Notes: generated by a model not told the origin, from the letters alone. Shown: positions 2,834-43,533, numbered from the stretch's first letter. The stretch is DNA of 64,000 nt from an uncultured Gemmatimonadaceae bacterium (GCA_964647615.1 CAZYIV010000004.1:6236-70235); one strand, 5' to 3'. Translations and numbers: made by a program.

Positions 2834-3984
2834 CGACGCGTCGCTGGTGGCTGGGGCTGCTGCTTGCGCTGGCCCTCGTCGGGGTACAACTCCTCCCCCC
2901 CTCGGGGTTCGACCCGACCGGCCTGCTGCCGCGCTGGCTCTGGCACGGGCCGCCCAGCATGCCGATGGACTCCCTGACGCGACAGCTCAGGCTGGTGGAC
3001 CGGGAGCTGAACCGGGCCCAGCAGCGGCTGGCCAGCCGCGAACTGCGCGACAGCCTGGCGCACTGGGCGCCTCCGGGCGGCCCCTCGGTCCGGCTGGTGC
3101 TGCAGGGTGAGGTGCCGGGTGCGGAGGCCACCCGTGCCCGCCAGCTCCACGCCTCCCTCCAGGCGGCGCTCGACTCCGCGGCTGCGCCGCCCGGACTGGT
3201 CGTGCTGGTGGTGCAGGGCGGGGCCCGCGCCACGTCGGCCCGGGACCTGGCGTCCCAGCTGGTCCTCCCCCCGGCCGGCGTCGCGGGGACCTGTGCGTTG
3301 AGCGTGCCGGCGCGGGTGCTGGCGCGGCCGGCCGGCGTGCACTGGGTGGAGGGCGCCATCGCGCCGTGCCTGTTCTACGCGGCCTACGGCCCACCGGGCC
3401 AGGAGGTCGAGCGATGGCTTGCCCGCCGGGGCTTCGACCTGGTGCGGCGGCCGGATCCACGGGGTCTGGTGCCGCCGCCCGCGGCGCCCGCCCTGGAGCT
3501 GATCACGGGCCGCTCGCCGCTGGCCGCGGCGATGCTGGGCCGGGACTGGCGCGACATCAACGCACTCGACCTGGTCGGTTGCCAGGCCGGGCAGCGCGCG
3601 CGCTGCGAGCCGGCGCTGCTGCAACCGCAGCCGCTGTTCGGCCGGCCGACCGGGCTCGACCGGACCCGGCGGTCCAGTTCGTTCGATTGGAGATTCTGGT
3701 CGGAGGACCAGGCCCGGGGCGACCTGCTCGGCAGCCTGGTGCGCGAGTTCGGCCCGGAGCGATTCCAGCACTTCTGGCGCTCGGCGGCGCCGGTGCCCGA
3801 GGCCTTCGAGGTGGCGTTCGGGGTGTCGTTCGAGGGCTGGGCCGCACGTTGGGTGCCGGAGCGGCTGGGGCGCACCGTGACCGGGCCCAGCCTGCGCTGG
3901 GCCGGGGTCACCGGCTGGTTGGGCCTCGCGGTCCTGGCGGTGCTCGCCGCCGCGTTCATGGCGGAGCGGCGCCGGGCCCGCTGA
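2830..3984 (+). CDS. Hypothetical membrane-anchored protein, paralogous C-terminal module to the preceding gene
   Basis: GTG 2830 overlaps the previous stop (GTGA). N-terminal TM WWLGLLLALALVGVQLL and C-terminal TM VTGWLGLAVLAVLAAAF. The longest ORF (from 2536) would overlap the previous gene by 300 nt. Confidence 0.6.
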   Translation: MTTRRWWLGLLLALALVGVQLLPPSGFDPTGLLPRWLWHGPPSMPMDSLTRQLRLVDRELNRAQQRLASRELRDSLAHWAPPGGPSVRLVLQGEVPGAEATRARQLHASLQAALDSAAAPPGLVVLVVQGGARATSARDLASQLVLPPAGVAGTCALSVPARVLARPAGVHWVEGAIAPCLFYAAYGPPGQEVERWLARRGFDLVRRPDPRGLVPPPAAPALELITGRSPLAAAMLGRDWRDINALDLVGCQAGQRARCEPALLQPQPLFGRPTGLDRTRRSSSFDWRFWSEDQARGDLLGSLVREFGPERFQHFWRSAAPVPEAFEVAFGVSFEGWAARWVPERLGRTVTGPSLRWAGVTGWLGLAVLAVLAAAFMAERRRAR

Positions 3985-3987
3985 CGC

Positions 3988-6531
3988 TCAGGCGGCGGCC
4001 AGCGCGGTGAGCCGCTGCTCCAGGACCCGCCGGGCACGGGTCAGCTCCACCTCGATCTCGCCCACCAGGCCCGCCGCGCCCTCCAGTGAGCCGTCGCGGG
4101 TGAGCTTCTCCAGCCTGCCGCACAGCCCCGACAGCCGCATGGCGCCGATGTTGCCCGCGCCGCCCTTCATCGCGTGGGCCGCGCGCATCACCCGGTTGGC
4201 GTCCCGCTCCGCCGTGCCGGTGCGCATGTGGTCCACCCGCGCGGGCGCCTCCCCGAAGAACAGCTCCACCAGCTCCCGCACCAGCGCCACGCCGCTCGCC
4301 GGCGCCACCTGGATGATGTCGTCGATGATCGTCTGGTCGAAGCCATCGGCATCCTCGACACCCGCCTCCGGTTCGGCGGGTGGGGTGGCCTCCGCGACCG
4401 GCTCGCCGTCCGCATCTTCCCAGCCCAGCCAGCGGGCCAGGGTGGCATAGAGCTCGGTGCTCCGGATCGGCTTGCTGATGTAGTCGTCCATGCCGGCGGC
4501 CAGGCAGCGCTCGCGATCGCCCTGCATGGCGTTGGCGGTCATCGCGACGATCGGGGTGTGCCGCGCCTCGCCCTCCAGCCGGCGGATCTCGGCCGTGGCG
4601 CCGTAGCCGTCCAGCTCCGGCATCTGGCAGTCCATCAGGATGATGTCGTACGGCAGCCGCGCCGCGGCGGCCACGCCCTCGACCCCGTTGCCCGCCAGGT
4701 CCACGAGGTAGCCCAACCGCTCCAGCATCTGGGTGGCGACCTTCTGGTTGACCGGGTTGTCCTCCACCAGCAGCACCCGGGCGCGGCCGCGGGGCCGCGC
4801 GTCGGGCGCGGGCAGCCCCTTGAGCAGCGCGCTGCGCCGCGCATGCCGCGGCTCCAGGCCGAGCGCCGTGCGCACGGCGTCGTGCAGGGCGCTGAGCCGC
4901 ACCGGCTTGGGCAGCGCGGCGGCGATGCCGGCCGCCTGCGCCTGCCGGGCATCGTGCAGCTCGGTGACCGGGCAGAGCACCACCACCTTCGTCCGGCGGA
5001 GCGGTTCGCTCTCCTGCACCGCGCGGGCCAGCTCCAGCCCGTCGGTGTCACCGAGGTCCGAGTCGAAGATGGCCAGGCGGATCGGCGCGTCCTCGTGCAC
5101 GCTGGCGCCGAGGCGGATGAGCGCCTCGGAGGCATCATCGGCGATCGCCACCCGGAGGCCGAGCGCCTCGAGATGGTCCACCAGCGCCAGCCGGGCGGTG
5201 GGGTGGCCGCTGGCGACCAGCACCCGCGTGCCTGCCAGCTCCTCGTCGGCCACGGTGCGCGGATCCGCCGGCGCCTCGGCCGGGTCCAGTCGCAGGGTGA
5301 ACCAGAAGGTGCTGCCCTGGCCCGGGACGCTCTCGACCCCCACCTCGCCGCGCATCAGCTCCACCAGCTGGCGGCAGATCGCGAGCCCGAGGCCGGTGCC
5401 GCCGTACTTGCGGGTGGTGGCGGTGTCGGCCTGGGAGAAGGGCTGGAACAGGCGGCCGCGCTGCTCCGGCGTGAGCCCGATCCCGGTGTCGCGCACTTCC
5501 CACCGCACCAGCACGCCCTCGCTCCCGGCCTCGGCCAGGCGGCAGTGCACCGTGACGGTGCCGCGCTCGGTGAACTTGATCGCGTTGGAGACCAGGTTGG
5601 TCAGCACCTGGCGCACCCGGGCCGGATCGCCGCGGAGGACCGCTGGCACGTCGCGCGCGACGTGGGCGGCGAGCTCGAGCTGCTTCACCGCCGCCTTCTC
5701 CGCCAGCAGGTCCAGGGTGTCCTCCAGCACCTCCTGCAGGGAGAAGTCCACCGTCTCCAGCGAGAGCCGTCCCGCCTCGATCTTGGAGAAGTCGAGGATG
5801 TCGTTGATGATCGTGAGCAGCGCCTCCCCGGAGGCGCGGACGGTCTCGACGTAGTTGCGCTGCTCCGGCGTGAGGGGGGTGTCGAGCAGGAGGCCCGTCA
5901 TGCCGATGACGCCGTTCATCGGGGTGCGGATCTCGTGGCTCATCATCGCGAAGAACGCCGACTTGACCCGCACCGACTCGAGCGCCTGGTCGCGCGCCTG
6001 CGCCAGCTCCTCGGCCTGCGTGGCCATGAGCGCGGCCTGTTCCTCCACCCGGAGGCGGGCGTCCTCGACGTCGAGTGAATAGCGGTAGAGATCCTCCTCC
6101 TGCCGCTTCCGGTCGGAGATGTCGGTCAGGGTGCCCACGTACGCGGTGGTGTGGCCCGCGGCGTCCAGCACCGCGCGCGCCGTCGCGCCCACCCAGCGGG
6201 CACTGCCCTCCGCGGACCGCACCCGGAATTCCGCCTGGAAGTCGCGCTGCTCCATGGCGGCGCTCTGCCACTCGGCCCGGACCGCCATGAGGTCCTCCGG
6301 CGCGATTGCCGACATCCACCCCGCGCCCATCGCCGCGGCTTCGTCGAGGCCGGTGAGCTCGCACCAGCGCGCGTTGGTGTAGCGGCAGCGTCCCGCCTCG
6401 TCGGTCTCGAAGATGCCGATCGGAGCGGACCGGCTGATCCGGGCGTAGCGCTCGGCCTCGTCTTCGCGATCCGACGCCGCGGCCACGGCCCGCCCACGGC
6501 GCGCGCTGCCCCAGCGGCCGAGGTGCTTCAT
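3988..6531 (-). CDS. Hybrid sensor histidine kinase (PAS-HisKA-HATPase-degenerate REC-REC-HPt)
   Basis: 847 aa. H-box [16 protein letters not shown]; N/G boxes NAIKFT, DTGIGL, GGTGLGL. Canonical receiver [10 protein letters not shown]...[10 protein letters not shown]...SKP. C-terminal HPt [13 protein letters not shown]. Confidence 0.95.
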
Positions 6532-9500
6532 GGCGCCTCTCCCGCCGTGGCGCGGTGTGCCGACAGCGCCCGCACCACCCGGTGCGCCTCCGCTTCCAGG
6601 GCACCGGCCGCGCGCGCCGCGGCGGCGAGGTCCGCCGCCCGGGCGGCGGTCTCCACCTCACGGCAGAGCCGGGCCAGTTCGCGGGCGCCGATGTAGGCCG
6701 CGCTGCTCTTGAGCGCATGGGCGGCCGCCCGGACCCGCTCCGGCTCCCCGGTGCCCAGCGCCACGACGATCGCCTCTCGCCGCGCGGGCAGGTCCTCGAG
6801 GAACAGGTCGATGAACTCGGTCACGACATCCGGGGCGCCCGGCTCCTGCAGCTGGCGGAAGCCCTCGAGCACCGCCGCATCCACCGTCTCGGGCGAGGGC
6901 GCATCGGCGGGCACCGGTTCCTGCGCCGCCGGGGTCACGGCGCCGCCCCCCGTCCACCGCTCCAGCACCCGCGCAAGCCGCCCGGCGTCCACCGGCTTGC
7001 TCAGGTAGTCATCCATCCCGGCGGCCAGGCAGCGCTCCCGGTCTCCCTGCATGGCATTGGCGGTCATCGCGATCACCGGCGTGCGCTGCCGGGGCTCCGG
7101 GAGGCGGCGGATCGCGGCGGTGGCTTCGTAGCCGTCCATCTCCGGCATCATGCAGTCCATGAAGACGGCGTCGTACGCGGTGCCGGTCACCATCTCCACC
7201 GCGGCGCGCCCGCCGTCCGCCAGCTCCACCCGGCAGCCCAGCCGGGCGAGCATCCGGGCGGCGACCTTCTGGTTGACCCGGTTGTCGTCCACCACCAGCA
7301 CCAGGGGACCGGCACCGTCCGGGTGGACCCGGGGTGCGAGCGCGACGATCGGGCCGCCGCCCTGCGAGGCGGGCGCCGGCGCCAGCACCAGCCGCATGGC
7401 GGCGGTGAGGTCCTGTCGCCGGACGGGCTTCCGCACCAGCGTGGCAAAGCCGTGATCCAGCAGCCAGCCGTCGGGCTGCGGGCCGAGCACCCCGCTCACC
7501 AGGATGAGCGGCAGGCCGGCAAAGCGCGGGTCGGCGCGGATGGCGCGCGCCACGTCGGCGCCGGTCTCCTGCTCCAGCGCGAAGTCGAGCAGCACCGCGT
7601 GGAACGGGCGCCCGGCCCCGTACTCCTGCGCCAGCACCGCCAGCGCCTCCGCGCCGGTGCCGACCGCCTCGACCTCGGCGCCCAGGGAGGTGAGCAGCTC
7701 ATGCACCGTCCGGCGCACCTGGGCCACGTCGTCCACCACCAGCAGGCGGGTGCCTGCGGGGCAGGGCGGGGCCGCCTCCCGCCCGGCGGACGGCGCGTCC
7801 CCGGCGACCGCGAGGGGCAGGGTGAACCAGAAGACGCTGCCCTCGCCCGGGGTGCTCTCCACCCCGATGGTGCCGTTCATCAGGCGCACCAGCTGGCGGC
7901 AGATGGTAAGCCCGAGGCCCGTCCCGCCGAAGCGCCGGGTGGTGGAGCTGTCGGCCTGGGTGAACTGCTCGAACACCGCCTCCAGCTTGTCGCTCGGGAT
8001 GCCGATGCCGGTGTCCCGCACCGCGAAGCGCAGCACCGGCCGGGCGCCGGTCGGGCTCTCGGTGGTCACCTCCAGCAGCACCTGGCCCCGGTCGGTGAAC
8101 TTCACCGCGTTGCCCAGCAGGTTGGTGAGGATCTGGCGCACCCGGCCCGCGTCGCCGACCACGTGCCGCGGCAGCTGCGGCTCCAGGTGCACCACCAGCT
8201 CCAGCTGCTTCTCCTGCGCCCGTGGCATGAGCAGGTCGGCCACGTCCTCGCACACCCGGGTGAGGTCGAACGGCGCCGCCTCGATGACCAGCTTGCCCGC
8301 CTCGATCTTGGAGACGTCGAGGATGTCGTTGATGATCGTGAGCAGGCTTTCGGCCGAGTTGCGGATGGTCTCGGCGCAGTCGCGCTGCTCCTCGCTGAGC
8401 GGGGTGGCGAGCAGCAGGCTGGTCATCCCGATCACCCCGTTCATCGGGGTGCGGATTTCGTGGCTCATGCTGGCCAGGAATTCCGACTTGAGCCGGGCGG
8501 AGTGGACCGCCTGCTGCCGGGCCCGGACCAGGTCATTGATCACCTGGGTGACCATCACGATGCCGCCCGGGGTCCCGTCGGTGCGCTGCCAGGGATGAAT
8601 GCCCCAGCGGAGGTGGACGCTCTCCCCGCTGGCCCGCTCGAACGCGTCCTCGGCGCACTCCAGCTGCTCTCCCGCGAGGGCGCGCCGGTGCAGCGCCTTC
8701 CACCGGTCGGGGACGTCGGGGAACACCTCGTAGTGGCTCAGGCCGCGCAGGTTGCGCTCGCCGAGCTGGTAGTCGGTCAGCCACTTCCCGCTCCAGGCGA
8801 CGTAGCGCATCTCGGTGTCGAGCATGGCCATCGCCACTGGGGCCTTGGCGATGCTCTCGGCGAGCACCGAGTTCTCCTGCTCCAGCACCTCCCGGGCGCG
8901 ACGCTGCTCGGTCACGTCCTGGCAGACCCCCACGTATCCGGCAAAGGTGCCGTCGGTGAGGTAGCGCGGTGCGCCGGTGCCGTGCATCCAGCGGTAGACC
9001 CCGTCGTGCCGCCGGAGCCGGAAGTGCACGTCCACCGGGTCGCGGCGGGCAAAGGCCGCGTGGTAGCTGTCGAGGCACTCCCGGGCATCCTCGCGATGCA
9101 GGCCGTCCAGCCACCCCTCGCCCAGTTCCTCCGCGAGGGACCGCCCGGTGAAGCGGAGCCAGCCGGCGTTGAAGTAGTGGCAGTGGGCGTCCGGCCCCGA
9201 CATCCACATCATCACCGGCGCCTGGTCGGCCATGGTGCGGAAGCGCTCCTCGCTCTCCCGCAGCCGCGACTCCCAGGCGCGGATGGCCTCCACCCGGTTG
9301 CGGTCGAGGGTGATGTCGCTCAGCGTGCCGGCCCAGGCGGTGCACCGGCCTGCGTCGTCGTGCCGCGGGGCAAAGTGGATCCGGAGCCAGCGGCCGGAGC
9401 CATCGGGATGCCGGCCGTGGAACTCGTCCGTGACCTCGTCGCCCCGCGCGAGGGCGTGCTGCCACCGCGACACGAGGCCGGCAGGGTCGCCGGCGGGGAG

Positions 9501-9655
9501 CACCTGCCACCAGCCGGTGCCGAGCGAGCTCTCGAGGTCGAGGCCGGTGAGCGCGGTCCAGCGCGGGTTCACGAAGGTGCACTCGCCCGCCGGGTCGCAC
9601 AGCAGCAGCGCAGCGGGCACGGCGCGGAGGATCTGGCTGGCGGCGGTCTCCGGCA

Positions 9656-9659
<4 letters not shown>
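6528..9659 (-). CDS. Hybrid sensor histidine kinase (3x PAS-HisKA-HATPase-degenerate REC-REC-HPt)
   Basis: 1043 aa with three PAS-like units before H-box [16 protein letters not shown]. HATPase DTGIGI/GGTGLGL, receiver VVDDNRVNQ...[10 protein letters not shown]...SKP, HPt [17 protein letters not shown] overlaps at both ends. Confidence 0.95.
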
Positions 9660-12049
<2,390 letters not shown>

Positions 12050-12294
12050 GCCCGACCCGACCTGGTCGGGGTCCGGCGACCGGGCTGGCGCAGGTCGCGA
12101 CTGGTGGCTGGGATGTCCGGGCGCGCCCGGCTGCTGCTGCGGTACATGAACGCCGCTCCGTGGCGCAATGGGCCCCGCCCCCCTCGGGGGCTGCGTCCCC
12201 CTAATGATCGGTCGGACCGGGCCGCTGCTTGAGCATCGGGCAGGGGCTGGCAAGCCGTTGCCGGGGAAAGGTTTGCCCCGAACCTCCCGGGTGG

Positions 12295-12321
12295 GGAAAC
12301 CCGACCCCGTGCGGCTCCGTT
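12295..12321 (+). promoter_or_regulatory. Candidate ECF-type promoter (GGAAAC-N17-CGTT) upstream of the ECF sigma gene
   Basis: GGAAAC at 12295-12300 and CGTT at 12318-12321, 37 nt before ATG 12358. This resembles the AAC / CGT ECF autoregulatory promoter pattern. Confidence 0.3.
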
Positions 12322-12357
12322 CCAACCGGGGAGCGGCCGGACTGTCCAATCCGGTGC

Positions 12358-12924
12358 ATGACGACCTCGACCGTGAGACCTCGACCCCTGCGGACCACCG
12401 ACACCCCGTCGCCCGACGCCGATGCCGTGGATGCCGCGCTCGCCGCGAGCGGCGATGCGCACGCCTTCGAGCGGTTGTATCGCCGCCACGTGGCGCGGAT
12501 CCACACCCTGGTGCGGCGGATGCTCGGGGAGGAGAACGAGGAGGTCACGCAGGAGGTGCTGATCCGCGCCTGGCGCAAGCTCGGCACCTTCCGGGGCGAG
12601 GCCGCCTTCGGCACCTGGTTGCACCGCCTGGCGGTGAACGTGATCCTGAACCACCGCACGGCGCGGGGCCGCTGGCGCAAGCTGTTCGTGGAGCCCGCGG
12701 CCGATGCGCCCGAGGCGCCGGCGCGCCCGGTCACCCCGGGGCACGGGGTGGACTTCGAGGTGGCGATGGCCCGGCTGTCGCCGGGGGCGCGCCAGGTGTT
12801 CGTGCTGCACGATGTGGAGGGGTACCGGCACGAGGAGGTGGCCGGCATGCTGGGAATCAGCGTGGGCACCTCCAAGTCCCAACTGCACTACGCGCGCATG
12901 GCCCTGCGCCGCGCGCTGGGGTGA
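12358..12924 (+). CDS. ECF (sigma-70 family) RNA polymerase sigma factor
   Basis: 188 aa. Region 2 FERLYRRHVARIHTLVRRML; region 4 VFVLHDVEGYRHEEVAGMLGISVGTSKSQLHYAR. Confidence 0.92.
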   Translation: MTTSTVRPRPLRTTDTPSPDADAVDAALAASGDAHAFERLYRRHVARIHTLVRRMLGEENEEVTQEVLIRAWRKLGTFRGEAAFGTWLHRLAVNVILNHRTARGRWRKLFVEPAADAPEAPARPVTPGHGVDFEVAMARLSPGARQVFVLHDVEGYRHEEVAGMLGISVGTSKSQLHYARMALRRALG

Positions 12925-13592
12925 TGACCATGACCGTGCATCCGCCGTCCCAGGAGCTGTCGGAGTACCTCGACGCCGAGCTGCCGCCGGAGCGGGCGGC
13001 ACAGGTGGAGCGTCACCTGCAGGAGTGCCCCGCCTGCGCGGCCGCGTACGAGGAGCTGCGGCGGGTGGTGGTGCGGGCTCAGGCGCTGGACGACCGGCCG
13101 CCACGCCGCGATCTCTGGCCCGGCGTGGCCGCGGCCATCGGTGCGGCGCCCGCGACCGACCGCCGGGTGACCCTCGGGCTCCCCACCCTGCTCGCGGCCA
13201 GCCTCGCCCTGATGCTCGGCTCCGGGGGCGCGGTGGTCCTGTGGCAGCGGGGCCATCCGGCCCCGGCTCCCGCGGTGGCGGCCGCGCCGCCGGTCGCGGT
13301 CCCGGAGAGCGTCCCCGCCCTGGTGGCCGCGCAACCCGCGGGCCGCGGCTACGCCGAGGCGGTGCGGGTGCTGGAACAGGAACTCGCGGCGCGCCGGGGG
13401 GCGCTCGATACCGCCACGGTGCGGGTGCTGGAGCAGAACCTGGCGCTGATTGACCGGGCCATCACCGAGGCCGAGCGCGCCCTGGCCGCCGATCCCGGTG
13501 ACGGTTACCTGGCGGGGCACCTCACCCAGACCCGCCTGCGCAAACTCGACCTGCTCCGCCGCGCGGCTGCGCTGAGCCGCGCGGAGAGCTGA
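12924..13592 (+). CDS. Anti-sigma factor, zf-HC2 type, single-pass membrane
   Basis: ATG 12924 overlaps the sigma stop by 1 nt. HLQECPAC zinc-finger motif; TM LGLPTLLAASLALMLGSGGAVVLW. Confidence 0.85.
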   Translation: MTMTVHPPSQELSEYLDAELPPERAAQVERHLQECPACAAAYEELRRVVVRAQALDDRPPRRDLWPGVAAAIGAAPATDRRVTLGLPTLLAASLALMLGSGGAVVLWQRGHPAPAPAVAAAPPVAVPESVPALVAAQPAGRGYAEAVRVLEQELAARRGALDTATVRVLEQNLALIDRAITEAERALAADPGDGYLAGHLTQTRLRKLDLLRRAAALSRAES

Positions 13593-13607
13593 CGGAAGGA
13601 CCGACCG

Positions 13608-14444
13608 ATGCTGTGGCTGATGCTGGCGCTGGCCGCGCCCCCGCAGGACACCGACACCACCGTGGCGCTGCAGGGTGCCACCCGGCTGGAGCTCTCGAGC
13701 TTCGAGGGGGACATCCGGGTCTCTACCTGGGACCGGCCCGCGGTCCGGATCCAGGCGGACCACGACGACGACACCCGGATCTCGGTCGAGACCGGGGGCC
13801 GGACCCTCAGGATCCACGCCCGCACCCGCGGCGGGCCTCCGGAAGTGCGCTGGCGGCTCACCGTGCCGGCCTCCCTCGTGCTCGATCTCTCCGCCCACAG
13901 CGGTGACGTCGAGGTGAGCGGCGTCCGCAGCGAGGTGCGGGTGAGCGCGGGCGAGGGGGACGTCACCGTCCGTGGCGGGCGGGGTTTCGTCGCGGTGCAG
14001 TCGGTGGAGGGCGCGGTCCTGCTGGAGGACGTGGACGGCGACGTCAGCGTCAGCTCCGTGGACGGGGCCATCACCGTCCGGCAGGCCCGGGGCGAGCTGT
14101 CGCTGAGCGCGGTGGACGGGGCGATCACCATGGAGGGGATCAGCGCCAGCCGGGTGGAGGCGAGCACCGTGGACGGCGAGGTCCGCTTCGACGGGGCGCT
14201 CCAGTCCGGCGGCCGCTACCGGCTCGCCTCGCACGACGGGGACGTGACCGTCACCGCCGCCGCGATCGATGCCGAGGTCTCGGTCTCCACCTTCAGCGGG
14301 GAGTTCGAGTCCGACTTTCCGGTGACCCTGCGCGGCACCGGCAACCGCCGCCGCCTGACGTTCACGCTCGGCCGGGGCGATGCCCGGCTCGAGCTCGAGT
14401 CCTTCGACGGTACCGTCGCGCTGCGGCGCGGTACCCGTCGCTGA
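13608..14444 (+). CDS. DUF4097-family beta-repeat protein (putative adhesin-like)
   Basis: 278 aa with repeated G(D/E)V.V / VDGAITV strands (SGDVEVSG, GDVTVRG, VDGAITVRQ, VDGAITMEG, VDGEVRF). Confidence 0.8.
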   Translation: MLWLMLALAAPPQDTDTTVALQGATRLELSSFEGDIRVSTWDRPAVRIQADHDDDTRISVETGGRTLRIHARTRGGPPEVRWRLTVPASLVLDLSAHSGDVEVSGVRSEVRVSAGEGDVTVRGGRGFVAVQSVEGAVLLEDVDGDVSVSSVDGAITVRQARGELSLSAVDGAITMEGISASRVEASTVDGEVRFDGALQSGGRYRLASHDGDVTVTAAAIDAEVSVSTFSGEFESDFPVTLRGTGNRRRLTFTLGRGDARLELESFDGTVALRRGTRR

Positions 14445-14473
14445 GTTCCCGACCCCGATCCCACGGAGCCGCC

Positions 14474-15238
14474 ATGCGCGCCCCTCTGCTCGCCCTTGCC
14501 CTTCCCGCCCTCCTGGCGCTGCCGCTCGCGGCGCAGGACTTCTCCTGGTCCGGCACTATCGCCCGGGGGAAGACCCTCGAGATCCGCGGCATCAACGGGC
14601 GGGTGCACGCCGTCGCCGCGCGGGGCGCGCAGGCGCGCGTCACCGCCACCAAGCACGCCCGCCGCAGCGACCCGGACGAGGTCGTGATCAAGGCGGTGGA
14701 GCACGAGGGCGGGGTCACGATCTGCGCCCTCTATCCCACCCGCCGCGGCGGCGACATGGAGTGCCGGCCGCACCGCGGCCAGGCCAACACCCGGGACAGC
14801 GATGTCGAGGTGGCCTTCGAGGTGGAGGTCCCGGCCGGGGTGACCTTCGCCGGCGCCACCGTCAACGGCGACATCAGCGCCCGGGACCTGCCGGGCGATG
14901 CCACGGTCTCGACCGTCAACGGGGACGTGGAGGTGAGCGCCGGCGGGGTGGTGGAGGCCGCCACCGTCAACGGCTCCATCGACGCGGAGATGGGGCGCCT
15001 GCCGGTCGAGGAGCCGGTCTCGCTCACCACGGTCAACGGCGGCATCACCCTGACGCTGAGCGGCACCCCGGGGATGGACCTCGAGGCGACCACGGTCAAT
15101 GGCGGCGTGGAAAGCGACTTCCCGATCACGGTCTCGGGACGGATGCGACCGAACTCGCTGCGGGGCAAGGTGGGCGATGGAGGACCGCGGGTGAAGCTCA
15201 CCACGGTCAACGGCGGGATCCAGCTGCGGAAGCGCTAG
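14474..15238 (+). CDS. DUF4097-family beta-repeat protein, secreted
   Basis: 254 aa. Signal peptide MRAPLLALALPALLALPLAAQ; repeats TVNGDISA, TVNGDVEVS, TVNGSIDA, TVNGGITL, TVNGGVES, TVNGGIQL. Confidence 0.85.
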   Translation: MRAPLLALALPALLALPLAAQDFSWSGTIARGKTLEIRGINGRVHAVAARGAQARVTATKHARRSDPDEVVIKAVEHEGGVTICALYPTRRGGDMECRPHRGQANTRDSDVEVAFEVEVPAGVTFAGATVNGDISARDLPGDATVSTVNGDVEVSAGGVVEAATVNGSIDAEMGRLPVEEPVSLTTVNGGITLTLSGTPGMDLEATTVNGGVESDFPITVSGRMRPNSLRGKVGDGGPRVKLTTVNGGIQLRKR

Positions 15239-15244
15239 GCGGCC

Positions 15245-17710
15245 TCAGGCGGGGCGCGGCCGGTCCAGCACTTCCCGGACCCGCCGCGCCAGCACCTCCG
15301 GCGTGAACGGCTTGGAGAGCAGGTCATGGCCCCGGAGCGGTCCGCCGGGGCCGTTGGTTTCCGGGGCCGGATAGCCGGACATGAAGAGCACCCGTGCCCG
15401 CGGCAGGAAGTTCGCCAGTGCCGCGACGGTCTCGGGTCCGGAGAGCCCGGGCATGACCACGTCGCTCAGCACCAGGGCCACCGCATCCGGGTGGTGTCGC
15501 ACGAGGGAGAGCGCCGCGGGCCCGCTCGGCGCCTCCAGCACGGTGTACCCCAGCTTGCGAAGCACCGATCCCGCCAGGCGCCGTACGGCATCCTCGTCTT
15601 CCACCAGCAGGATGGTCTCGGTCCCGCCGTAGAGCGCCTCGCGCGCCGCCGGGGTGCCGGGCCGCCCCGCAGGCGGGCGGCCCACCGGCAGGTAGATGTG
15701 GAACGCCGTGCCTACCCCCGGCGTGCTCTCCACCCGCACCCCGCCACCACTCTGCCGCACCACGCCATACACGGTCGCGAGCCCCAGCCCGGTGCCCTGA
15801 CCGACGTCCTTGGTGGTGAAGAACGGCTCGAAGATGTGATCCAGGGTGGCCTGGTCCATGCCCACCCCGGTATCGCGGATGGTCAGCCGGGCGTACGGCC
15901 CCGCACCCACCTCCACCAGTTCCGGCGGCAGCGCCTCGTCGGGGCCCGTCAGGCCGGTGCTCAGGGTGAGCACGCCGCCCTGGGGCATCGCATCACGGGC
16001 GTTCACCGCCAGGTTGATGATGACCTGTTCCAGCTGGCTCCGGTCGGCCCGGAGCCAGACCGGCCGCCCGGCGGGCCGGGTCTCCAGCCGGATGTGCTCC
16101 CCGATGAGCCGCGCGAGGAGGCTGCCCAGTTCGACCACGACCTGGTCCAGGTCGAGGTCGGTGAGCTGCTGCACCTGCTTCCGGCTGAAGGCCAGCAACT
16201 GGCTCGTCAGGCTCGCCGCGCGCTCCGCCGCCCGGCGGATCTCCGCCAGCTCGCCCTGGCGGGCGGCGTCCGGCATCTCGGCGGCCAGGAGGTCGGAATA
16301 GCCGACGATCGCGGTAAGCAGGTTGTTGAAGTCGTGCGCGATGCCGCCGGCGAGGCGGCCGACCGCCTCCATCTTGAGGGCCTGGCGGAGCTGTTCCTCC
16401 CGCTGCCGCAGCGCCTCCTCGGTGCGCTTCTGCTCGGTGATGTCCACCATCACCCCGTGCAGCCGCGGCGGCTGGCCCGAGGCCGGCGCGACGCTGGTGA
16501 AGTCGCGTACCCACACCACCCGCCCGTCGGACGCCAGCAGCCGGTAGTCGAGCTCGTGGTCCCGGCCCGCGAGCGCCTCCACCCGGCGCCGCGCCAGCAC
16601 CGCCTCACGGTCCTCCGGGTGGATGGCCCGGGACCAGAAGCCCGGCTCGAGCCAGGCGTCCACCGGATGGCCCAGCATCCGGTGCGCCTGGGGCGAGACG
16701 AAGCTGAACCGGCCGTCCGATGGGTCGGCCTCCCACACAATGCCGTTGATCGTGTGCACCAGCCCGCGGTAGCGATCCTGGGTGCGTGCCAGCTCCCGGG
16801 CGCTGGCCGCCAGGGCGGAGACATCCTGCAGCGCGCCGATCAGCCGCACCGGACGCCCCTCGGGGTCCCGGATCACCTGCCCGTGGTCCACCACCTCCGC
16901 CCAGCTCCCGTCGGCCCGCTGGAAGCGGTACTCGAACTGCCAGTGGGTTTCGGTGGAGGACTCGGTGCGGCGGTAGTCCTCGATCACCCGGCCGCGATCG
17001 TCGGGGTGCACCCGGTCGATCCACCAGGTCTCGCTGGTGCCGATGGCCCCTGGCGCGTAGCCGAAGAGCGTGGTGTAACCATCGCCCCGGCGGATGGTGC
17101 GGGTCGCGTAGTCCTCCACCCAGAGGGCCTCGCGCGAGAGCTCGAGCGCCACCCGGTGCAGCGTGTCGCTCTCGCGCAGCAGCGCCTCGCTGGCCCGGCG
17201 GTGTTCCACGTCCCGCTCGAGGGTTGCGACCGCCTCGGCCCGGCCGAATTCGGTCGAGGCGATCGCCGCCAGATCCTGCACCGCCTGCCGCTCCTCCGGG
17301 CTCCAGTCGCGGGGCACCCGGTCGAAGATCGTGACCGTGCCGATACAGTCGTTGGTGGCGAGCCGGATCGGGGCCGAGGCCAGTCCCCGGATGCCCAGCG
17401 CGCGGGTGAGCCCCAGGGGCCCGACGATCGGGTCGGCGGGGGCATCGGTCAGGAACACCGGCAGTCCCACCACCACCACCAGCGCGCAGGGGGTGTCCGC
17501 CGCCGGCGCGGAGTCCGGTGCGCCGTCGGCGAAGGCCGGGCCCGCCGCGGCGAGGAAGCGGAGGGTGGAGCCGTCCAGGAAGGTGACCACCGCGCCGGCC
17601 ACGCCGAGCAGGCTCGCCGCCACGCGCACCACGGGATCGAGCGCCTCCCGCGCAGGGAGCGCCGTGGATCGCCCGGTGCGGTCGTGGCTGGCGCGCAGGG
17701 TGGTGGGCAT
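15245..17710 (-). CDS. Hybrid sensor histidine kinase (GAF-PAS-PAS-HisKA-HATPase-REC)
   Basis: 821 aa. H-box GGIAHDFNNLLTAIVGY; HATPase DTGVGM/GTGLGLATVYG. C-terminal receiver ILLVEDEDAVR...SDVVMPGLSG...SKPF. Confidence 0.95.
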   Translation of the reverse strand: MPTTLRASHDRTGRSTALPAREALDPVVRVAASLLGVAGAVVTFLDGSTLRFLAAAGPAFADGAPDSAPAADTPCALVVVVGLPVFLTDAPADPIVGPLGLTRALGIRGLASAPIRLATNDCIGTVTIFDRVPRDWSPEERQAVQDLAAIASTEFGRAEAVATLERDVEHRRASEALLRESDTLHRVALELSREALWVEDYATRTIRRGDGYTTLFGYAPGAIGTSETWWIDRVHPDDRGRVIEDYRRTESSTETHWQFEYRFQRADGSWAEVVDHGQVIRDPEGRPVRLIGALQDVSALAASARELARTQDRYRGLVHTINGIVWEADPSDGRFSFVSPQAHRMLGHPVDAWLEPGFWSRAIHPEDREAVLARRRVEALAGRDHELDYRLLASDGRVVWVRDFTSVAPASGQPPRLHGVMVDITEQKRTEEALRQREEQLRQALKMEAVGRLAGGIAHDFNNLLTAIVGYSDLLAAEMPDAARQGELAEIRRAAERAASLTSQLLAFSRKQVQQLTDLDLDQVVVELGSLLARLIGEHIRLETRPAGRPVWLRADRSQLEQVIINLAVNARDAMPQGGVLTLSTGLTGPDEALPPELVEVGAGPYARLTIRDTGVGMDQATLDHIFEPFFTTKDVGQGTGLGLATVYGVVRQSGGGVRVESTPGVGTAFHIYLPVGRPPAGRPGTPAAREALYGGTETILLVEDEDAVRRLAGSVLRKLGYTVLEAPSGPAALSLVRHHPDAVALVLSDVVMPGLSGPETVAALANFLPRARVLFMSGYPAPETNGPGGPLRGHDLLSKPFTPEVLARRVREVLDRPRPA

Positions 17711-19144: not shown

Positions 19145-20782
19145 CTACCCGGCCTGCAGCCCCTCGGTGAGTGGCACCCCGGCCACCGACGGCCGGCGCA
19201 GCAGCCGGCGGGCCCGTGCCACCAGCTCGCGGATGGTCACCGGCTTGGTGAGGTAGTCGTCGGCGCCCAGCTCGAAGGCCCGCACGATGTGGTTCTCGTC
19301 GCCGACGGCCGTCAGCATCATCACGGGGATGTGGCGGAACTCCGGCAGCTCGCGGAGTGCCCGGAGGAACTGCAGCCCGTCCATGCCGGGCATCTGGATG
19401 TCGCTGATCACCATGCTGGCCCCGCTGCCGGGCAGCGCCGCCAGGGCGCTTTCGCCGTCGCCACAGGCGATGACCTCGAAGCCCTCCCGGCGGAGTCCCT
19501 GGCTCACCATCCGGACCATGGCCGGATCGTCCTCGGCGAGGAGCACGCGGCGCACCGGCAGCGAGAGTCCCGACTCCCCGGCCAGCACGCGGTTCCGCCC
19601 GGACGCCTTGGCCACGTAGCACAGCCGGTCGGCGGTGGCGAAGCCCTCGTCCAGCGGCTGGCCGGTGACCAGGTCCGCGACGCCGGAGGAGAAGGTGACC
19701 GTGAGCGGCGCGCCACCGTCGGCCCGGAAGTCCACCCGGCGCAAGACCAGCCGCGCCTGGTCCACGATCGCGCCCGCCTCGGCGGCGGTGCGTCCCGCGA
19801 ACAGCGCGATGAACTCGGCCCCGTCCCACCGGGCAAAGACCGCCGCCTGCCGCAGCGCCATCGCCAGCCGGATACCGGCCCGGCGCAGCACGCTGTCGGC
19901 CAGCTGCCGGCCGTAGGTCTCCTCCACCCAGCGGAAGTGGTCCAGGTCCAGCACCGCCAGCGCGAACGGGGTGCCCGCGGGGCTGGTGTCGCGCAGGTGT
20001 TCCACCCGCTCCAGGAAGGCCGCCCGGTTGGGGAGCCCGGTGACGGGATCGCGGCGGGCCGCCTCGTGCTGCGAGGCCTGGCGCTCCAGCCGGGAGCTCA
20101 CCGCCACCCCGAAGGCCGCCATGTCCACCGGCTTCTCGAAGTAGGCATCGGCTCCCAGCGCGAAGCACTCCGACTTGGTATGCCCCCCGAGCTTGCAGGA
20201 GACCACGAACACCGGAATGCCGCTGGTGCGCGGATGGGAACGGAGCTCGAGCAGCAGGCTCCGGCCGTCGCCATCGGGGAGGATCAGGTCGAGGATCAGG
20301 AGGTCGACCGGCGTGCTCCGCAGCACCTCACGGGCGGCGTGCGCGTTCTCCGCCACCACCACCCGCCGGCCGTGCACCGCGAGCAGGGTCTCGAGCGAAC
20401 GGGCGAAGAGGAGGTCGTCCTCCACCACCAGGATCACGCCCGGGGGCCGCGCCATCGGCGCCTGCACTGCCCGCCGGAGCAGGCTCACCAGGCCGGCGGC
20501 CGCGGCGGGGAGCTGGCTGTCCTCCTGCAGCAGGACGGCCTCGGCGGCGGCCAGCTGCTCGGGCCGACCCTCCAGGGTCGTGCCCTCGCAGAGGGAGCGG
20601 GCGAGGCGGCGGATGCTCTCGCCGGCCTCGGCCTGCTCGTCAGGCAGGGCCAGGCGGGGCAGGGCCGTCTCGAGGGCCGCGAGCGCGGCGGTGACCGCCG
20701 CCCGGCGGGCGGAGGGCAGCCCGCGGGCAGGCTGGGGATCGGAGGGCGGCGGCGGGGCACTCATCGCCTCCAGTATCGGCAC
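19145..20782 (-). CDS. Response regulator REC-GGDEF(degenerate)-REC
   Basis: 545 aa. Receiver 1 ILVVEDD...LILDLILPDGDG; GGDEF fold PVTGLPNRAAF...LDLDHFRWVEETYG, but the active site reads RWDGAEF (19811-19825) instead of GG(D/E)EF. Receiver 2 VLLAEDDPAM...SDIQMPGMDG...TKP. Confidence 0.9.
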   Translation of the reverse strand: MPILEAMSAPPPPSDPQPARGLPSARRAAVTAALAALETALPRLALPDEQAEAGESIRRLARSLCEGTTLEGRPEQLAAAEAVLLQEDSQLPAAAAGLVSLLRRAVQAPMARPPGVILVVEDDLLFARSLETLLAVHGRRVVVAENAHAAREVLRSTPVDLLILDLILPDGDGRSLLLELRSHPRTSGIPVFVVSCKLGGHTKSECFALGADAYFEKPVDMAAFGVAVSSRLERQASQHEAARRDPVTGLPNRAAFLERVEHLRDTSPAGTPFALAVLDLDHFRWVEETYGRQLADSVLRRAGIRLAMALRQAAVFARWDGAEFIALFAGRTAAEAGAIVDQARLVLRRVDFRADGGAPLTVTFSSGVADLVTGQPLDEGFATADRLCYVAKASGRNRVLAGESGLSLPVRRVLLAEDDPAMVRMVSQGLRREGFEVIACGDGESALAALPGSGASMVISDIQMPGMDGLQFLRALRELPEFRHIPVMMLTAVGDENHIVRAFELGADDYLTKPVTIRELVARARRLLRRPSVAGVPLTEGLQAG

Positions 20783-24852: not shown

Positions 24853-25179
24853 GCGCCCGCGTCGGTCTCTGGGCCCCAATCCAGGGCAACACCGCGCGCA
24901 GGCGCGCGCGCCGGCACCGGCGTGCTGGCGCCCGCTTGCCGCGGTCGCCCCGGGTGTGGTGGCCGGAACGCTGACGAGCGGGTGCCGGGCCCCGCGGCCC
25001 GGGGACGGCGTGGCAGGCAGGACAAGCTGAAGGTGGAAGGTGTGGCAGGCGGGTGAGGGACAGGCGGCGGTGCGGGGACCGTTCGTCCGGACCGCATCCG
25101 CCTGTCACATTTTTCCATGTTGACCGTCTCCGGGGCGACGACGATCTTGTGTCGTTTGCCCTTCCCGGAGCCATTCCCG

Positions 25180-33758: not shown

Positions 33759-33992
33759 TCAGGCGTCGGGGATCTTGATGACCTGGCCGGGGAAGATCAG
33801 GTCCGGGTTCTTGATGATGTCCTTGTTGGCTTCGTGGATCTTCCGCCACTGCTTCGCGTCGCCGTAGAACTTCTTGGCGATCTTCGAGAGGCTGTCACCC
33901 TTGGCGATGGTGTAGGTGCGGCCGCCCTTGGCGTCGGCGGTGGATGAGCTGCCACCGGTCACGTCGGAGAAATCGGGATCATCGGAAGTCAT
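33759..33992 (-). CDS. LysM domain-containing small protein
   Basis: 77 aa. YTIAKGDSLSKIAKKFYGDAKQWRKIHEANKDIIKNPDLIFPGQVIKIP is a canonical LysM fold sequence. Confidence 0.85.
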   Translation of the reverse strand: MTSDDPDFSDVTGGSSSTADAKGGRTYTIAKGDSLSKIAKKFYGDAKQWRKIHEANKDIIKNPDLIFPGQVIKIPDA

Positions 33993-34073
33993 GGCGCCCT
34001 CCAGGGAGATGGGCCGGGAGCCGGCCTCCTGCCGGGTCCGGAAACCGGGGGGAGTCTAGTCCGGGCGACCCCC

Positions 34074-34108
34074 TTGCGCCAGAAGTTGCATACTGCATAT
34101 TTATCCCG
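34074..34108 (+). promoter_or_regulatory. Candidate arg operon promoter with ArgR-operator-like AT-rich element
   Basis: TTGCGC (34074-34079), about 17-18 nt, then ATATTTA (34097-34103). Tandem TGCATA-C-TGCATA (34087-34099) lies in the spacer. This is the only AT-rich island in the region and ends 5 nt before the argG ATG. Confidence 0.3.
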
Positions 34109-35290: not shown

Positions 35291-35332
35291 CGCGGCCGGC
35301 ACCCTCCCGTCGCCGCCCCGGAGAACCCCTCC

Positions 35333-36412: not shown

Positions 36413-36417
36413 CGCCG

Positions 36418-39625: not shown

Positions 39626-39667
39626 CCGCGCGCCCTTCCTTCATCTCCTTCCTCACGACGGGCAGCC

Positions 39668-43081: not shown

Positions 43082-43533
43082 GCGGGGACCGCCGCAAGCG
43101 GCTGCTCAAGATCCTGGAACTGATCAGCACCCGGCCGATCCGCACCCAGGAGGAACTGGCCGACGCGCTCGCCGCCGAGGGGTGGAAGGTCACCCAGAGC
43201 TCGGTGAGCCGGGACATCTCGGCCCTCCGGCTGGTGAAGGTGGAGGGCGCCTACCAGCGGCCGGCGCGGGTCGCCGCCGACCCGGAGCACCCCGACGAGC
43301 GGCGCATCGCGGACGGGGTCCTGACCGCGGACGCGGCCGGCGACGCCCTGATCGTCCTGCACACCCCACCCGGCGAGGCCAACCGCGTTGCCGTGGCCAT
43401 TGACCGCCTGGCCTGGCCCGACGTGATCGGGTCCATCGCCGGGGACGACACCCTCTTCCTCGCGGTGAAGCATGCGGCGGCGCAGCAGCGGGTGCTGCGC
43501 CAGCTGCGCCGCCTCGCCGACGCGCGGGCCTAG
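43078..43533 (+). CDS. argR: Arginine repressor
   Basis: 151 aa with an ATGA overlap with argH. Winged-helix IRTQEELADAL...VTQSSVSRDISAL; C-terminal GSIAGDDT arginine-binding motif. Confidence 0.92.
   Translation: MSGDRRKRLLKILELISTRPIRTQEELADALAAEGWKVTQSSVSRDISALRLVKVEGAYQRPARVAADPEHPDERRIADGVLTADAAGDALIVLHTPPGEANRVAVAIDRLAWPDVIGSIAGDDTLFLAVKHAAAQQRVLRQLRRLADARA

What the first reader, a model, noticed from the sequence alone, without database searches (positions are those of the whole stretch)
3988..12349. Three translationally coupled giant hybrid kinase-REC-REC-HPt genes with no output regulator
Three consecutive minus-strand genes (about 800, 1043 and 847 aa) share the same C-terminal layout: DHp-CA, a degenerate receiver, a canonical receiver and an HPt domain. 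Their sensor modules differ: HNOBA-like, 3x PAS and 1x PAS. Their junctions are exact ATGA overlaps at 9656-9659 and 6528-6531. No DNA-binding or enzymatic response regulator is encoded in the unit, so three HPt outputs converge on an unknown target. Stoichiometric co-translation of three paralogous phosphorelay proteins suggests a hetero-oligomeric or branched signal-integration device. This is not a standard two-component pair.
Basis: partly seen in the sequence, partly recalled or inferred. Interest (0 to 1): 0.6.

Follow-up and report, generated by a model that had tools for sequence, protein, structure and literature searches.

The report
Tandem hybrid kinases, one kinase-dead
Three adjacent signalling-kinase genes in a Gemmatimonadota genome are a conserved two-kinase pair plus a third, optional kinase that once partnered a nitric-oxide sensor and has here lost that sensor and its own catalytic histidine, so this is an ordinary phosphorelay locus with one modestly interesting decayed member.

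Summary
The three minus-strand genes, their domain layouts and both ATGA overlaps are real. Two corrections apply.

- Gene C (9656-12049, 797 aa) is not a competent kinase. Its H-box reads LNRDLRGP instead of MSHEIRTP, and its F/G2 ATP-lid motifs are gone.
- B's first receiver is canonical, not degenerate.

Synteny in eight other Gemmatimonadota assemblies (two may be one species) shows that the triad is not a conserved unit. A is present in all of them and B in all but one. They always abut (-4 to +12 nt) and always face a divergent ECF sigma/anti-sigma/DUF4097 cluster.

C occurs elsewhere only in one other cluster, covering three assemblies. There it has a canonical H-box and follows an hnoX (H-NOX) gene. 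C's sensor matches the solved H-NOXA domain of the Nostoc kinase (2P04). The window has no hnoX.

C's DHp has decayed selectively: 40% identity to its orthologue, against 82-93% for B and A, with Gly/Ala/Arg/Pro content rising from 21% to 49%. Its second receiver and HPt remain as conserved as in A and B.

My best reading is that B and A are ordinary cytoplasmic PAS hybrid kinases, and C is an orphaned H-NOX-type pseudokinase that may still act as a REC-HPt acceptor. The likeliest output is the syntenic REC-GGDEF(DGAEF)-REC protein. Known kind; low to moderate interest.

The parts
3988..6531 (-). Gene A, 847 aa. A cytoplasmic unorthodox hybrid kinase. Domains: PAS (6103-6453), DHp with H-box [12 protein letters not shown] (5746-5994), CA (5278-5649), pseudo-receiver REC1 (4864-5232, acidic pair lost), canonical REC2 (4423-4782), HPt HAMKG (4012-4299).
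   Evidence: Pfam; motif table; no TM segment. Orthologues of 59-76% identity occur in all nine loci examined.
6528..9659 (-). Gene B, 1043 aa. A cytoplasmic hybrid kinase. Domains: three PAS (8535-9629), DHp [12 protein letters not shown] (8271-8519), CA (7803-8174), canonical REC1 (7380-7754), canonical REC2 (6954-7307), HPt HALKS (6555-6842).
   Evidence: Pfam; motifs. B orthologues lie directly upstream of A in 7 of the 8 other loci whose sequence reaches that position. They are reduced to REC-HPt in L091 and lack HPt in L088.
9656..12049 (-). Gene C, 797 aa, GTG start. An H-NOXA/HNOBA-sensor hybrid pseudokinase. Domains: sensor (11555-12049), decayed DHp (11312-11545) with H-box FLARLNRDLRGP (11489-11524; Arg182 codon 11504-11506 replaces the phospho-His), CA with N and G1 boxes kept but F/G2 lost (10850-11215), pseudo-receiver REC1 (10451-10807), canonical REC2 (10049-10405), HPt HTLKS (9680-9982).
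   Evidence: the sensor matches PDB 2P04/2P08 and sGC H-NOXA domains.
9656..9659 (-). ATGA stop/start overlap between C and B, preceded by GGGAGG.
6528..6531 (-). ATGA stop/start overlap between B and A, preceded by GGGAGAGG.
12050..12357 (.). A 308-bp divergent intergenic region between C and the ECF sigma gene. This is where relatives carry hnoX. No H-NOX remnant is detectable here.
   Evidence: tblastn with H-NOX at E<=10 finds no credible hit anywhere in the 64 kb and nothing in this interval. blastn of the interval against L001/L082/L083 aligns only the sigma 5' end and the 5' end of C.
12358..12924 (+). ECF sigma factor (188 aa), divergent from the kinase operon. It is conserved in this position in all nine loci.
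   Evidence: Pfam; start fixed; synteny.
12924..13592 (+). zf-HC2 anti-sigma factor (222 aa).
   Evidence: Pfam; gene call in the identical-strain locus L084; translation.
13608..15238 (+). Two DUF4097 (toastrack) genes, 13608-14444 and 14474-15238, that complete the sigma cluster.
   Evidence: Pfam; conserved synteny.
15245..17710 (-). Gene G, a GAF-PAS-PAS-HisKA-HATPase-REC hybrid kinase without HPt. It is found at this position only in the window and in L091.
   Evidence: Pfam.
19145..20782 (-). REC-GGDEF-REC protein, the candidate terminal acceptor. Both receivers are canonical. The GGDEF motif is RWDGAEF (degenerate) and there is no RxxD I-site.
   Evidence: Pfam; sequence. The motif is conserved in all 7 orthologues. 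It is the only non-kinase receiver protein found in the window.

Best explanation
The locus is a Gemmatimonadota signalling island. Its conserved core is two adjacent cytoplasmic PAS-sensing unorthodox hybrid kinases, B then A. Each runs an internal His->Asp->His relay that ends on its own HPt domain. They are transcribed divergently from an ECF sigma/anti-sigma/DUF4097 cluster.

Gene C is an older third paralogue. It belongs to an H-NOX-partnered kinase type: H-NOXA sensor, HK, pseudo-REC, REC, HPt. In relatives it is co-encoded with, and presumably regulated by, an H-NOX haem protein.

In this strain hnoX has been deleted. C has then lost its phospho-acceptor His (now Arg182), picked up Pro/Gly in DHp helix 1, and lost its ATP-lid F/G2 motifs. 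It therefore cannot autophosphorylate. Its second receiver and HPt domain are kept under constraint.

Inferred, not shown:
- C now works only as a REC-HPt phospho-acceptor, shuttle or sink. It would be fed in trans by A, B or the HPt-less hybrid kinases nearby.
- The HPt domains deliver phosphate to an unlinked receiver. The best candidate is the syntenic REC-GGDEF(DGAEF)-REC protein.
For: Shown:
- Domain content.
- H-box and G2 motifs are canonical in 18 of 19 kinases of the three orthologue clades and aberrant only in the window's C.
- C orthologues in L001/L082/L083 have MSHEIRTP and GGTGLGL and lie immediately downstream of an hnoX gene (PF07700). In L001 the two genes overlap by 19 nt.
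- A more distant full-length relative (P0005, 35% identical) is also preceded by hnoX.
- C's sensor matches the H-NOXA domain structures 2P04/2P08 (E 2e-12) and sGC alpha/beta PAS domains.
- There is no hnoX in the 64-kb window.
- Identity by domain to the orthologue. DHp: A 93%, B 82%, C about 30% (local alignment) or 40% (global alignment). REC2: 70%, 69%, 71-73%. HPt: 50%, 58%, 55-59%.
- Gly/Ala/Arg/Pro content of C's DHp is 0.49 against 0.21 in the orthologue. It is unchanged in REC2 (0.40 vs 0.39) and HPt (0.44 vs 0.44).
- win_C sits on the longest branch of its clade.
- B-A adjacency is kept in all loci examined, while C is absent from six.
- L091 carries a B-derived stand-alone REC-HPt gene overlapping A by 4 nt. 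A kinase-less REC-HPt module therefore occurs a second time at this locus.

Precedent for the proposed output: the Silicibacter H-NOX -> hybrid HK -> Hpt -> REC-GGDEF relay (PMC4436077).
Against: - No experiment or expression data exist, and promoter/terminator scans were empty.
- C's kinase loss is seen in one strain lineage only (window = L084 = L085). It could be recent decay rather than a maintained new role.
- An intact ORF is weak evidence at 74% GC, where antisense ORFs of over 1000 codons occur by chance.
- An hnoX gene could exist elsewhere in the genome, outside the window.
- The proposed acceptor has a degenerate GGDEF motif, so the output chemistry is unknown.
- Its linkage is by synteny only. 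It is separated from the kinases by the sigma cluster and lies further off in L089/L090.
Confidence: 0.6

Rival explanations
1. C is simply a gene in the course of being lost. After the hnoX deletion it became useless. A and B work independently of it, and conservation of its REC2/HPt only reflects how recent the inactivation is.
For: - The hnoX-C module is dispensable. It is absent from L086-L091, and hnoX carries an in-frame internal deletion in L082.
- C has lost catalytic motifs and shows a GARP drift in its DHp.
- Its branch is long.
- Its whole-protein GARP is 0.45, against 0.37 for A and B.
Against: - Decay is sharply domain-specific. The DHp fell to 40% identity, while REC2 (73%) and all DD/D/T/K and HxxKS residues are intact.
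- There is no frameshift or stop in 797 codons, in three independent assemblies.
- GC3 is 0.92.
- The B start codon and its Shine-Dalgarno-like run are embedded in C's 3' end.
Confidence: 0.28
2. A, B and C are co-translated in fixed stoichiometry and assemble into a hetero-oligomeric, branched signal-integration device with three equivalent HPt outputs.
For: - ATGA overlaps are present at both junctions.
- The DHp of A and B are 74% identical, so heterodimers are conceivable.
- B-A adjacency is conserved everywhere.
Against: - The triad is absent from six of the eight other loci, including the closest relative.
- C lacks the phospho-His, and its DHp, the dimerisation element, is the most decayed part and carries Pro/Gly in helix 1.
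- C's DHp is only 33-34% identical to those of A and B.
- Junction geometry is not conserved for C-B.
Confidence: 0.07
3. C is a RetS-like modulator. It would be a kinase-independent hybrid protein that binds the DHp of A or B and blocks or redirects their phosphorylation.
For: - C has a His-independent architecture with two tandem receivers, as RetS does (own knowledge of the GacS/RetS network).
- C is co-encoded with A and B.
Against: - RetS-type control needs a dimerisation-competent DHp. C's DHp is the least conserved region and is enriched in helix breakers.
- The orthologous C' is a normal kinase.
Confidence: 0.05

Closest known systems
H-NOX-associated hybrid histidine kinases: V. fischeri HnoX/HahK feeding the SypF HPt, V. 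harveyi and V. parahaemolyticus H-NOX/HqsK feeding LuxU, and the Silicibacter sp. TrichCH4B relay H-NOX -> SiliHK -> SiliHpt -> SiliDGC (PMC12369376, PMC6759604, PMC4436077)
   Same: - C's orthologues are hybrid kinases encoded directly after an hnoX gene.
- Several hybrid kinases act in parallel in one network.
- A REC-GGDEF protein is a documented end point in Silicibacter, and one sits in synteny here.
   Different: - C carries its own HPt and an N-terminal H-NOXA domain.
- In the window hnoX is absent and the phospho-His is Arg.
- The syntenic GGDEF protein has a degenerate DGAEF motif and a second receiver.
Nostoc punctiforme signal-transduction histidine kinase H-NOXA domain (PDB 2P04/2P08) and the sGC alpha1/beta1 H-NOXA (PAS) domains
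   Same: Residues 1-117 of C align to 2P04 over its whole length (E 2.4e-12) and to the sGC PAS domains (E about 1e-6). Pfam also gives HNOBA.
   Different: In sGC, H-NOX is fused to H-NOXA. In this family it is a separate gene, and in the window it is missing altogether.
Unorthodox (tripartite) sensor kinases: ArcB, BvgS, EvgS, TorS, BarA/GacS
   Same: A and B have HisKA, HATPase_c, REC and HPt in one polypeptide, with all catalytic residues present.
   Different: - There is an extra receiver between CA and the relay receiver. It is a pseudo-receiver in A and canonical in B.
- The sensors are soluble PAS domains rather than periplasmic ones.
- There is no adjacent cognate regulator.
Histidine pseudokinases: Caulobacter DivL and Streptomyces PsmA, a hybrid HK-like protein lacking the catalytic His (PMC12963549, PMC4211667)
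   Same: C has a histidine-kinase fold without the phospho-acceptor His.
   Different: PsmA and DivL are conserved as pseudokinases across genera. C's loss is confined to one strain lineage, and its orthologue is a normal kinase. C also keeps an apparently competent REC-HPt pair.
Pseudomonas aeruginosa GacS/RetS/LadS/PA1611-HptB multikinase network
   Same: Several hybrid kinases converge on shared downstream components, and one member (RetS, with two receivers) acts without needing its own kinase chemistry.
   Different: Those genes are dispersed and their products are membrane-bound. Here the genes are tandem and the products cytoplasmic. No evidence for DHp heterodimerisation was obtained.

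Membership tests
Unorthodox hybrid sensor kinase (HisKA-HATPase_c-REC-HPt) | DHp (HisKA) with a phospho-acceptor His in an H-box | tested here: met
   Met for A ([12 protein letters not shown]) and B ([12 protein letters not shown]). Not met for C (FLARLNRDLRGP, HisKA only 23 bits, below Pfam's cutoff of 26.9).
Unorthodox hybrid sensor kinase (HisKA-HATPase_c-REC-HPt) | CA domain with N, G1, F and G2 boxes | tested here: met
   A and B have all four boxes. C keeps N (SNGIRFT) and G1 (DTGPGI) but has lost F/G2 (FELAGRAGADPAPV--ASGFGL).
Unorthodox hybrid sensor kinase (HisKA-HATPase_c-REC-HPt) | Relay receiver with the acidic pair, phospho-Asp, T/S and K, followed by an HPt with HxxK[G/S] | tested here: met
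   REC2 (EDN/DDN, MDC, MTAN, KP) and HPt (HAMKG, HALKS, HTLKS) are canonical in A, B and C.
H-NOX-associated histidine kinase | An hnoX (PF07700) gene adjacent to or in an operon with the kinase | tested here: not met
   No H-NOX coding potential is found in the 64-kb window or in the 308-bp region upstream of C. The feature is met in the orthologous loci L001 and L083, partly in L082, and in the distant relative L092.
H-NOX-associated histidine kinase | H-NOXA/HNOBA sensor domain | tested here: met
   Pfam HNOBA E 5.7e-13. PDB 2P04 E 2.4e-12 and sGC PAS domains E about 1e-6.
H-NOX-associated histidine kinase | NO/H-NOX-controlled autophosphorylation | not testable with these tools
   This needs biochemistry. 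The sequence predicts no autophosphorylation, because the His and the ATP lid are lost.
Histidine pseudokinase | HK fold retained but the phospho-acceptor His replaced | tested here: met
   HATPase_c E 7e-24 with His -> Arg182. The same sequence appears in independent assemblies.
Histidine pseudokinase | The protein is maintained by selection in its kinase-dead state | tested here: inconclusive
   REC2 and HPt are as conserved as in A and B while the DHp has decayed. Only one strain lineage carries the dead form, and no relative is close enough for dN/dS: L084/L085 are 99.96% identical and the next relative is 52% identical at the protein level.
   C-B-A is present in the window and in the L082/L083 cluster (L001 is cut off after C'). 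L086, L087, L088, L089 and L090 have B-A only, and L091 has REC-HPt plus A.
   ATGA overlaps are present in the window. In relatives the B-A junction ranges from -4 to +12 nt, and C'-B' is a 26-nt overlap. Actual coupling needs expression data.

The most novel reading that the evidence does not exclude
At this Gemmatimonadota locus, hybrid kinases are repeatedly stripped down to kinase-less REC-HPt modules. In the window this happened by point decay of C after loss of its H-NOX partner. In L091 it happened by truncation of B to a 274-aa REC-HPt gene. Both genomes, and only these two, also carry the extra HPt-less GAF-PAS hybrid kinase G at the same site. On this reading the REC-HPt remnants are selected as phosphotransfer hubs. 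They would collect phosphate from HPt-less hybrid kinases and from A, and pass it to the conserved REC-GGDEF(DGAEF)-REC protein, all in functional association with the invariant divergent ECF sigma cluster.
Probability: 0.2. Interest if true: 0.45.

Novelty: new member of a known kind. Interest (0 to 1): 0.27.

Why it matters
The locus offers a small natural experiment in how phosphorelays are remodelled. A nitric-oxide-sensor kinase lost its sensor partner, and then selectively lost the kinase half of the protein while keeping the relay half.

If C is functional, it would be an example of a sensor kinase turning into a pure phosphotransfer component. It would also point to the conserved B-A pair, the ECF sigma cluster and the degenerate GGDEF double-receiver protein as one untested signalling module in a poorly studied phylum.

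If C is merely decaying, the locus is an ordinary tandem of hybrid kinases.

Tried and rejected
- **Genome-collection scan with C.** The back-translated pattern MDCQMPVM hit generic hybrid kinases from many phyla. None of the 80 loci (L002-L081) contained H-NOX or C's sensor. Context came from exact-protein look-ups instead.
- **Look-up of P0001.** It was not on record, so the window's own contig could not be extended to search for hnoX beyond the 64 kb.
- **dN/dS for C.** This was abandoned. L084/L085 are the same strain, with 3 mismatches in about 7 kb. The next relative is about 50% identical at the protein level, so synonymous sites are saturated.
- **Promoter and terminator scan of 3600-12700.** It found nothing on either strand, which is uninformative at 74% GC and for a phylum with unknown promoter rules. 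Rfam found nothing in 1-24000.
- **Gene G as a split-off N-terminal half of an ancestral long B.** Rejected. G's kinase core is only about 27% identical to the A/B cores and lacks their H-box pattern.
- **Upstream extension 12050-12349 as part of C or an H-NOX relic.** Rejected by homology.
- **Structure prediction of C.** Not run, because the motif-level and PDB-sequence evidence already answered the domain questions.

Full report
**1. What is in the sequence**

The window has about 74% G+C. ORF listing and a codon-position GC filter single out three consecutive minus-strand genes with GC3 of 0.92-0.95:
- A, 3988-6531, 847 aa.
- B, 6528-9659, 1043 aa.
- C, within the ORF 9656-12349.

Pfam results:
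- A is PAS-HisKA-HATPase_c-REC-REC-Hpt.
- B is three PAS domains plus the same core.
- C is HNOBA, a sub-threshold HisKA (23.4 bits against a cutoff of 26.9), HATPase_c, REC-REC and Hpt.

Both junctions are exact ATGA overlaps at the coordinates given, each with a purine-rich GGGAGG-type run a few bases upstream.

C starts at GTG 12049, giving 797 aa. That product is identical to a deposited protein (P0001), and similarity to orthologues begins at residue 2. The upstream 300 nt of the maximal ORF is intergenic DNA facing the sigma gene, which starts at ATG 12358.

None of the three proteins has a hydrophobic stretch compatible with a membrane helix.

Two independent Logan assemblies are 99.96% identical to the window across 6.9-7.5 kb of this region (L084: 15833-8317; L085: 15311-8440) and encode the same C. 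The features below are therefore not assembly errors.

**2.

Alignment of the three proteins, and of 19 kinases from the orthologous loci, gives this picture:

| Motif | 18 other kinases | Window's C |
|---|---|---|
| H-box | [FL]xA[MSN]MSHEIRTP | FLARLNRDLRGP (phospho-acceptor His is Arg182, codon 11504-11506) |
| F/G2 ATP lid | FxxFxQADxSTTRxxGG[TS]GLGL | FELAGRAGADPAPV--ASGFGL |
| N and G1 boxes | present | retained |

C is therefore predicted to be unable to autophosphorylate.

The "degenerate first receiver" is true only for clades A and C. Clade A lacks the acidic pair. Clade C also lacks the T/S and the Lys. B's first receiver has DD, D, S and K in all seven B orthologues.

The second receiver and the HPt motif (HxxK[G/S]) are canonical in every protein, including C.

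**3. Related loci and the test of the triad**

The nearest relative of C is a 90%-identity cluster (P0002/P0125/P0128, 52% identical). One member is labelled Gemmatimonadota. Its loci (L001, L082, L083) share the window's neighbourhood: AsnC regulator, EamA, REC-GGDEF-REC, amino-acid permease, two DUF4097 genes, zf-HC2 anti-sigma and a divergent ECF sigma.

tblastn shows the same order C'-B'-A' in L082 and L083, at 51%, 54% and 67% identity. L001 ends shortly after C'.

These loci differ from the window in two ways:
- C' is preceded by a 183-aa H-NOX gene, which overlaps it by 19 nt in L001.
- C' has a canonical H-box and G2 box.

The H-NOX protein has the expected proximal His and the Y-x-S-x-R motif (read from the sequence; these features are named from my own knowledge of the family).

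A has about 28 orthologues at 59-76% identity. I looked up the context of six of them:
- All six keep the divergent sigma cluster.
- L086, L087, L088, L089 and L090 have only a B-type gene directly followed by A, with junctions from -4 to +7 nt.
- L091 has a 274-aa REC-HPt gene overlapping A by 4 nt. This small gene is 59-61% identical to the REC2-HPt end of B proteins, so it is a truncated B.
- None of the six has hnoX or a C-type gene.

L086 is the closest relative (A about 74% identical). It is sister to the window in both the A and B clades of a neighbour-joining tree and shares the window's downstream ABC-transporter genes. It lacks C entirely.

The three kinases form three old paralogue clades, and the window's C sits on a long branch.

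The conserved unit is therefore B-A plus the sigma cluster. hnoX-C is an accessory module.

**4. What C is**

Its N-terminal 117 residues align end to end with the solved H-NOXA domain of the Nostoc punctiforme signal-transduction kinase (2P04, E 2.4e-12; 2P08). They also align with the PAS/H-NOXA domains of soluble guanylate cyclase alpha and beta subunits.

A more distant full-length relative (P0005, 35% identical) is again encoded immediately after an hnoX gene, next to a single-domain receiver. Partnership with H-NOX is thus the norm for this kinase type.

In the window there is no H-NOX coding potential anywhere in the 64 kb (tblastn at E<=10). The 308-bp interval where hnoX sits in relatives shows no nucleotide similarity to it.

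**5. Decay is domain-specific**

Identity to the L082 or L001 orthologue, and Gly+Ala+Arg+Pro content:

| Measure | A | B | C |
|---|---|---|---|
| DHp identity | 93% | 82% | about 30% (local) or 40% (global) |
| REC2 identity | 70% | 69% | 71-73% |
| HPt identity | 50% | 58% | 55-59% |

| C domain | GARP, orthologue | GARP, window |
|---|---|---|
| DHp | 0.21 | 0.49 |
| REC2 | 0.39 | 0.40 |
| HPt | 0.44 | 0.44 |

The GARP rise in the DHp includes prolines and glycines inside helix 1 (LRGPAEALAAPLARLLDHAGLGP).

This is the pattern expected if the kinase half was released from selection after the H-NOX input was lost, drifting under GC pressure, while the relay half stayed constrained. The caveat is that only one strain lineage shows it and no codon-level selection test is possible.

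In L082 the hnoX gene itself has an in-frame internal deletion: only residues 1-35 and 143-179 remain. This suggests the NO input is being shed more than once in this group.

**6. Likely mechanism**

Shown: A and B have every residue needed for His->Asp->His relay. C has only the Asp and second His stations.

Inferred:
- A and B sense cytoplasmic signals through PAS domains and load their own HPt.
- C can be phosphorylated only in trans. The source could be A or B, back-transfer from an HPt, or the two HPt-less hybrid kinases in the window (G at 15245-17710 and the gene at 43543-46062). C would then act as an extra shuttle or a sink.

The only non-kinase receiver protein in the window is the REC-GGDEF-REC gene at 19145-20782. 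It is syntenic in seven of the nine loci. Both of its receivers are canonical. Its cyclase motif is RWDGAEF in all seven orthologues and there is no RxxD I-site. It is probably not a cyclase but a phosphorylation-controlled adaptor.

A REC-GGDEF protein is the proven end point of the Silicibacter H-NOX/hybrid-kinase/Hpt relay (PMC4436077), which makes it the best candidate here. This is synteny-level evidence only.

**7. Comparison with known systems**

- A and B are ordinary members of the very large class of unorthodox hybrid kinases. One search returned 7460 proteins at E<=1e-100 among the 8000 candidates scored, most with the same Pfam string.
- C belongs by descent to the H-NOX-associated kinases (HahK, HqsK, SiliHK, Nostoc STHK). 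It fails two of their defining features here: an adjacent hnoX and a phospho-His.
- As a His-less hybrid kinase it resembles pseudokinases such as PsmA (PMC12963549) and DivL. Unlike them, it is not conserved in that state.
- The multi-kinase layout recalls the Vibrio LuxN/LuxQ/CqsS/HqsK and Pseudomonas GacS/RetS networks (own knowledge, plus PMC6759604 and PMC12369376).

**8. Verdict**

The proposed three-protein stoichiometric device is not supported.

What is there is a conserved pair of tandem hybrid kinases plus an orphaned, kinase-dead H-NOX-type paralogue. This is a new member of known kinds. The domain-selective decay of C, and the parallel REC-HPt remnant in L091, are the only mildly unusual points. 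Interest is low to moderate.

Noticed in passing
window 19145-20782 (-): The REC-GGDEF-REC protein has a degenerate cyclase motif, RWDGAEF instead of GG[DE]EF, and no RxxD I-site. The motif is identical in all seven syntenic orthologues. It is therefore a conserved, probably non-catalytic GGDEF flanked by two canonical receivers.
   Followed up: partly
L082 9669-10004: The hnoX gene of this relative carries an in-frame internal deletion. Only H-NOX residues 1-35 and 143-179 remain, so the haem-binding core is removed, while the downstream kinase C' is still canonical. This could be a second, independent loss of the NO sensor, or an assembly artefact.
   Followed up: partly
L091 9180-10004: A stand-alone 274-aa REC-HPt gene derived from the C-terminus of a B-type kinase (59-61% identity) replaces B and overlaps the start of A by 4 nt.
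   Followed up: partly
window 12358-15238 (+); all related loci: An ECF sigma, zf-HC2 anti-sigma and two DUF4097 genes lie divergent from the kinase operon in all nine loci. L086-L091 also carry a second, paralogous cluster a few kb downstream of A: sigma, anti-sigma, a roughly 295-aa DUF4097-like gene and a PAS hybrid kinase. This hints at a recurring link between ECF sigma modules and hybrid kinases in this phylum.
   Followed up: no
window 15245-17710 (-); L091 3196-5997: An extra GAF-PAS-PAS-HK-REC hybrid kinase without HPt sits between the permease and the DUF4097 genes. It does so only in the window and in L091, the two genomes that also have a kinase-less REC-HPt module beside A.
   Followed up: no
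L092 4905-8899 / L093 2675-6669: A distant relative of C (P0005, 1140 aa) follows an hnoX gene. It carries weak hits to haem-oxygenase-like families (TENA_THI-4, Haem_oxygenas_2) in addition to HNOBA-HK-REC-HPt. A single-domain receiver gene lies divergent from it.
   Followed up: no
L082 12438-18884; L083 12375-18753: The B' and A' genes of these MAGs are broken into several ORFs by frameshifts, although tblastn shows continuous similarity. These are probably assembly indel errors rather than pseudogenes.
   Followed up: partly
L082 18936-20321; L088 12695-14137; L091 12559-14016: A Ser/Thr protein kinase gene follows A on the same strand in three relatives but not in the window. In the window, A is followed by convergent genes of unknown function and an ABC transporter.
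   Followed up: no
window 6555-10106 (+), 9743-12232 (+), 4174-6078 (+): Very long antisense ORFs (up to 1183 codons) overlie the kinase genes. Their codon-position GC does not look coding. They are a by-product of 74% G+C, and they show that an open frame alone is weak evidence here.
   Followed up: yes
window 25117-33209 (+); 33944-43533 (+); 43543-46062 (+): The rest of the window holds a bacterial alpha-2-macroglobulin gene followed by a transglycosylase/transpeptidase penicillin-binding-protein gene carrying a PBP C-terminal (BiPBP_C) domain, arginine-biosynthesis-type genes with an ArgR repressor, and a fifth hybrid kinase (PAS-HK-REC, no HPt).
   Followed up: no
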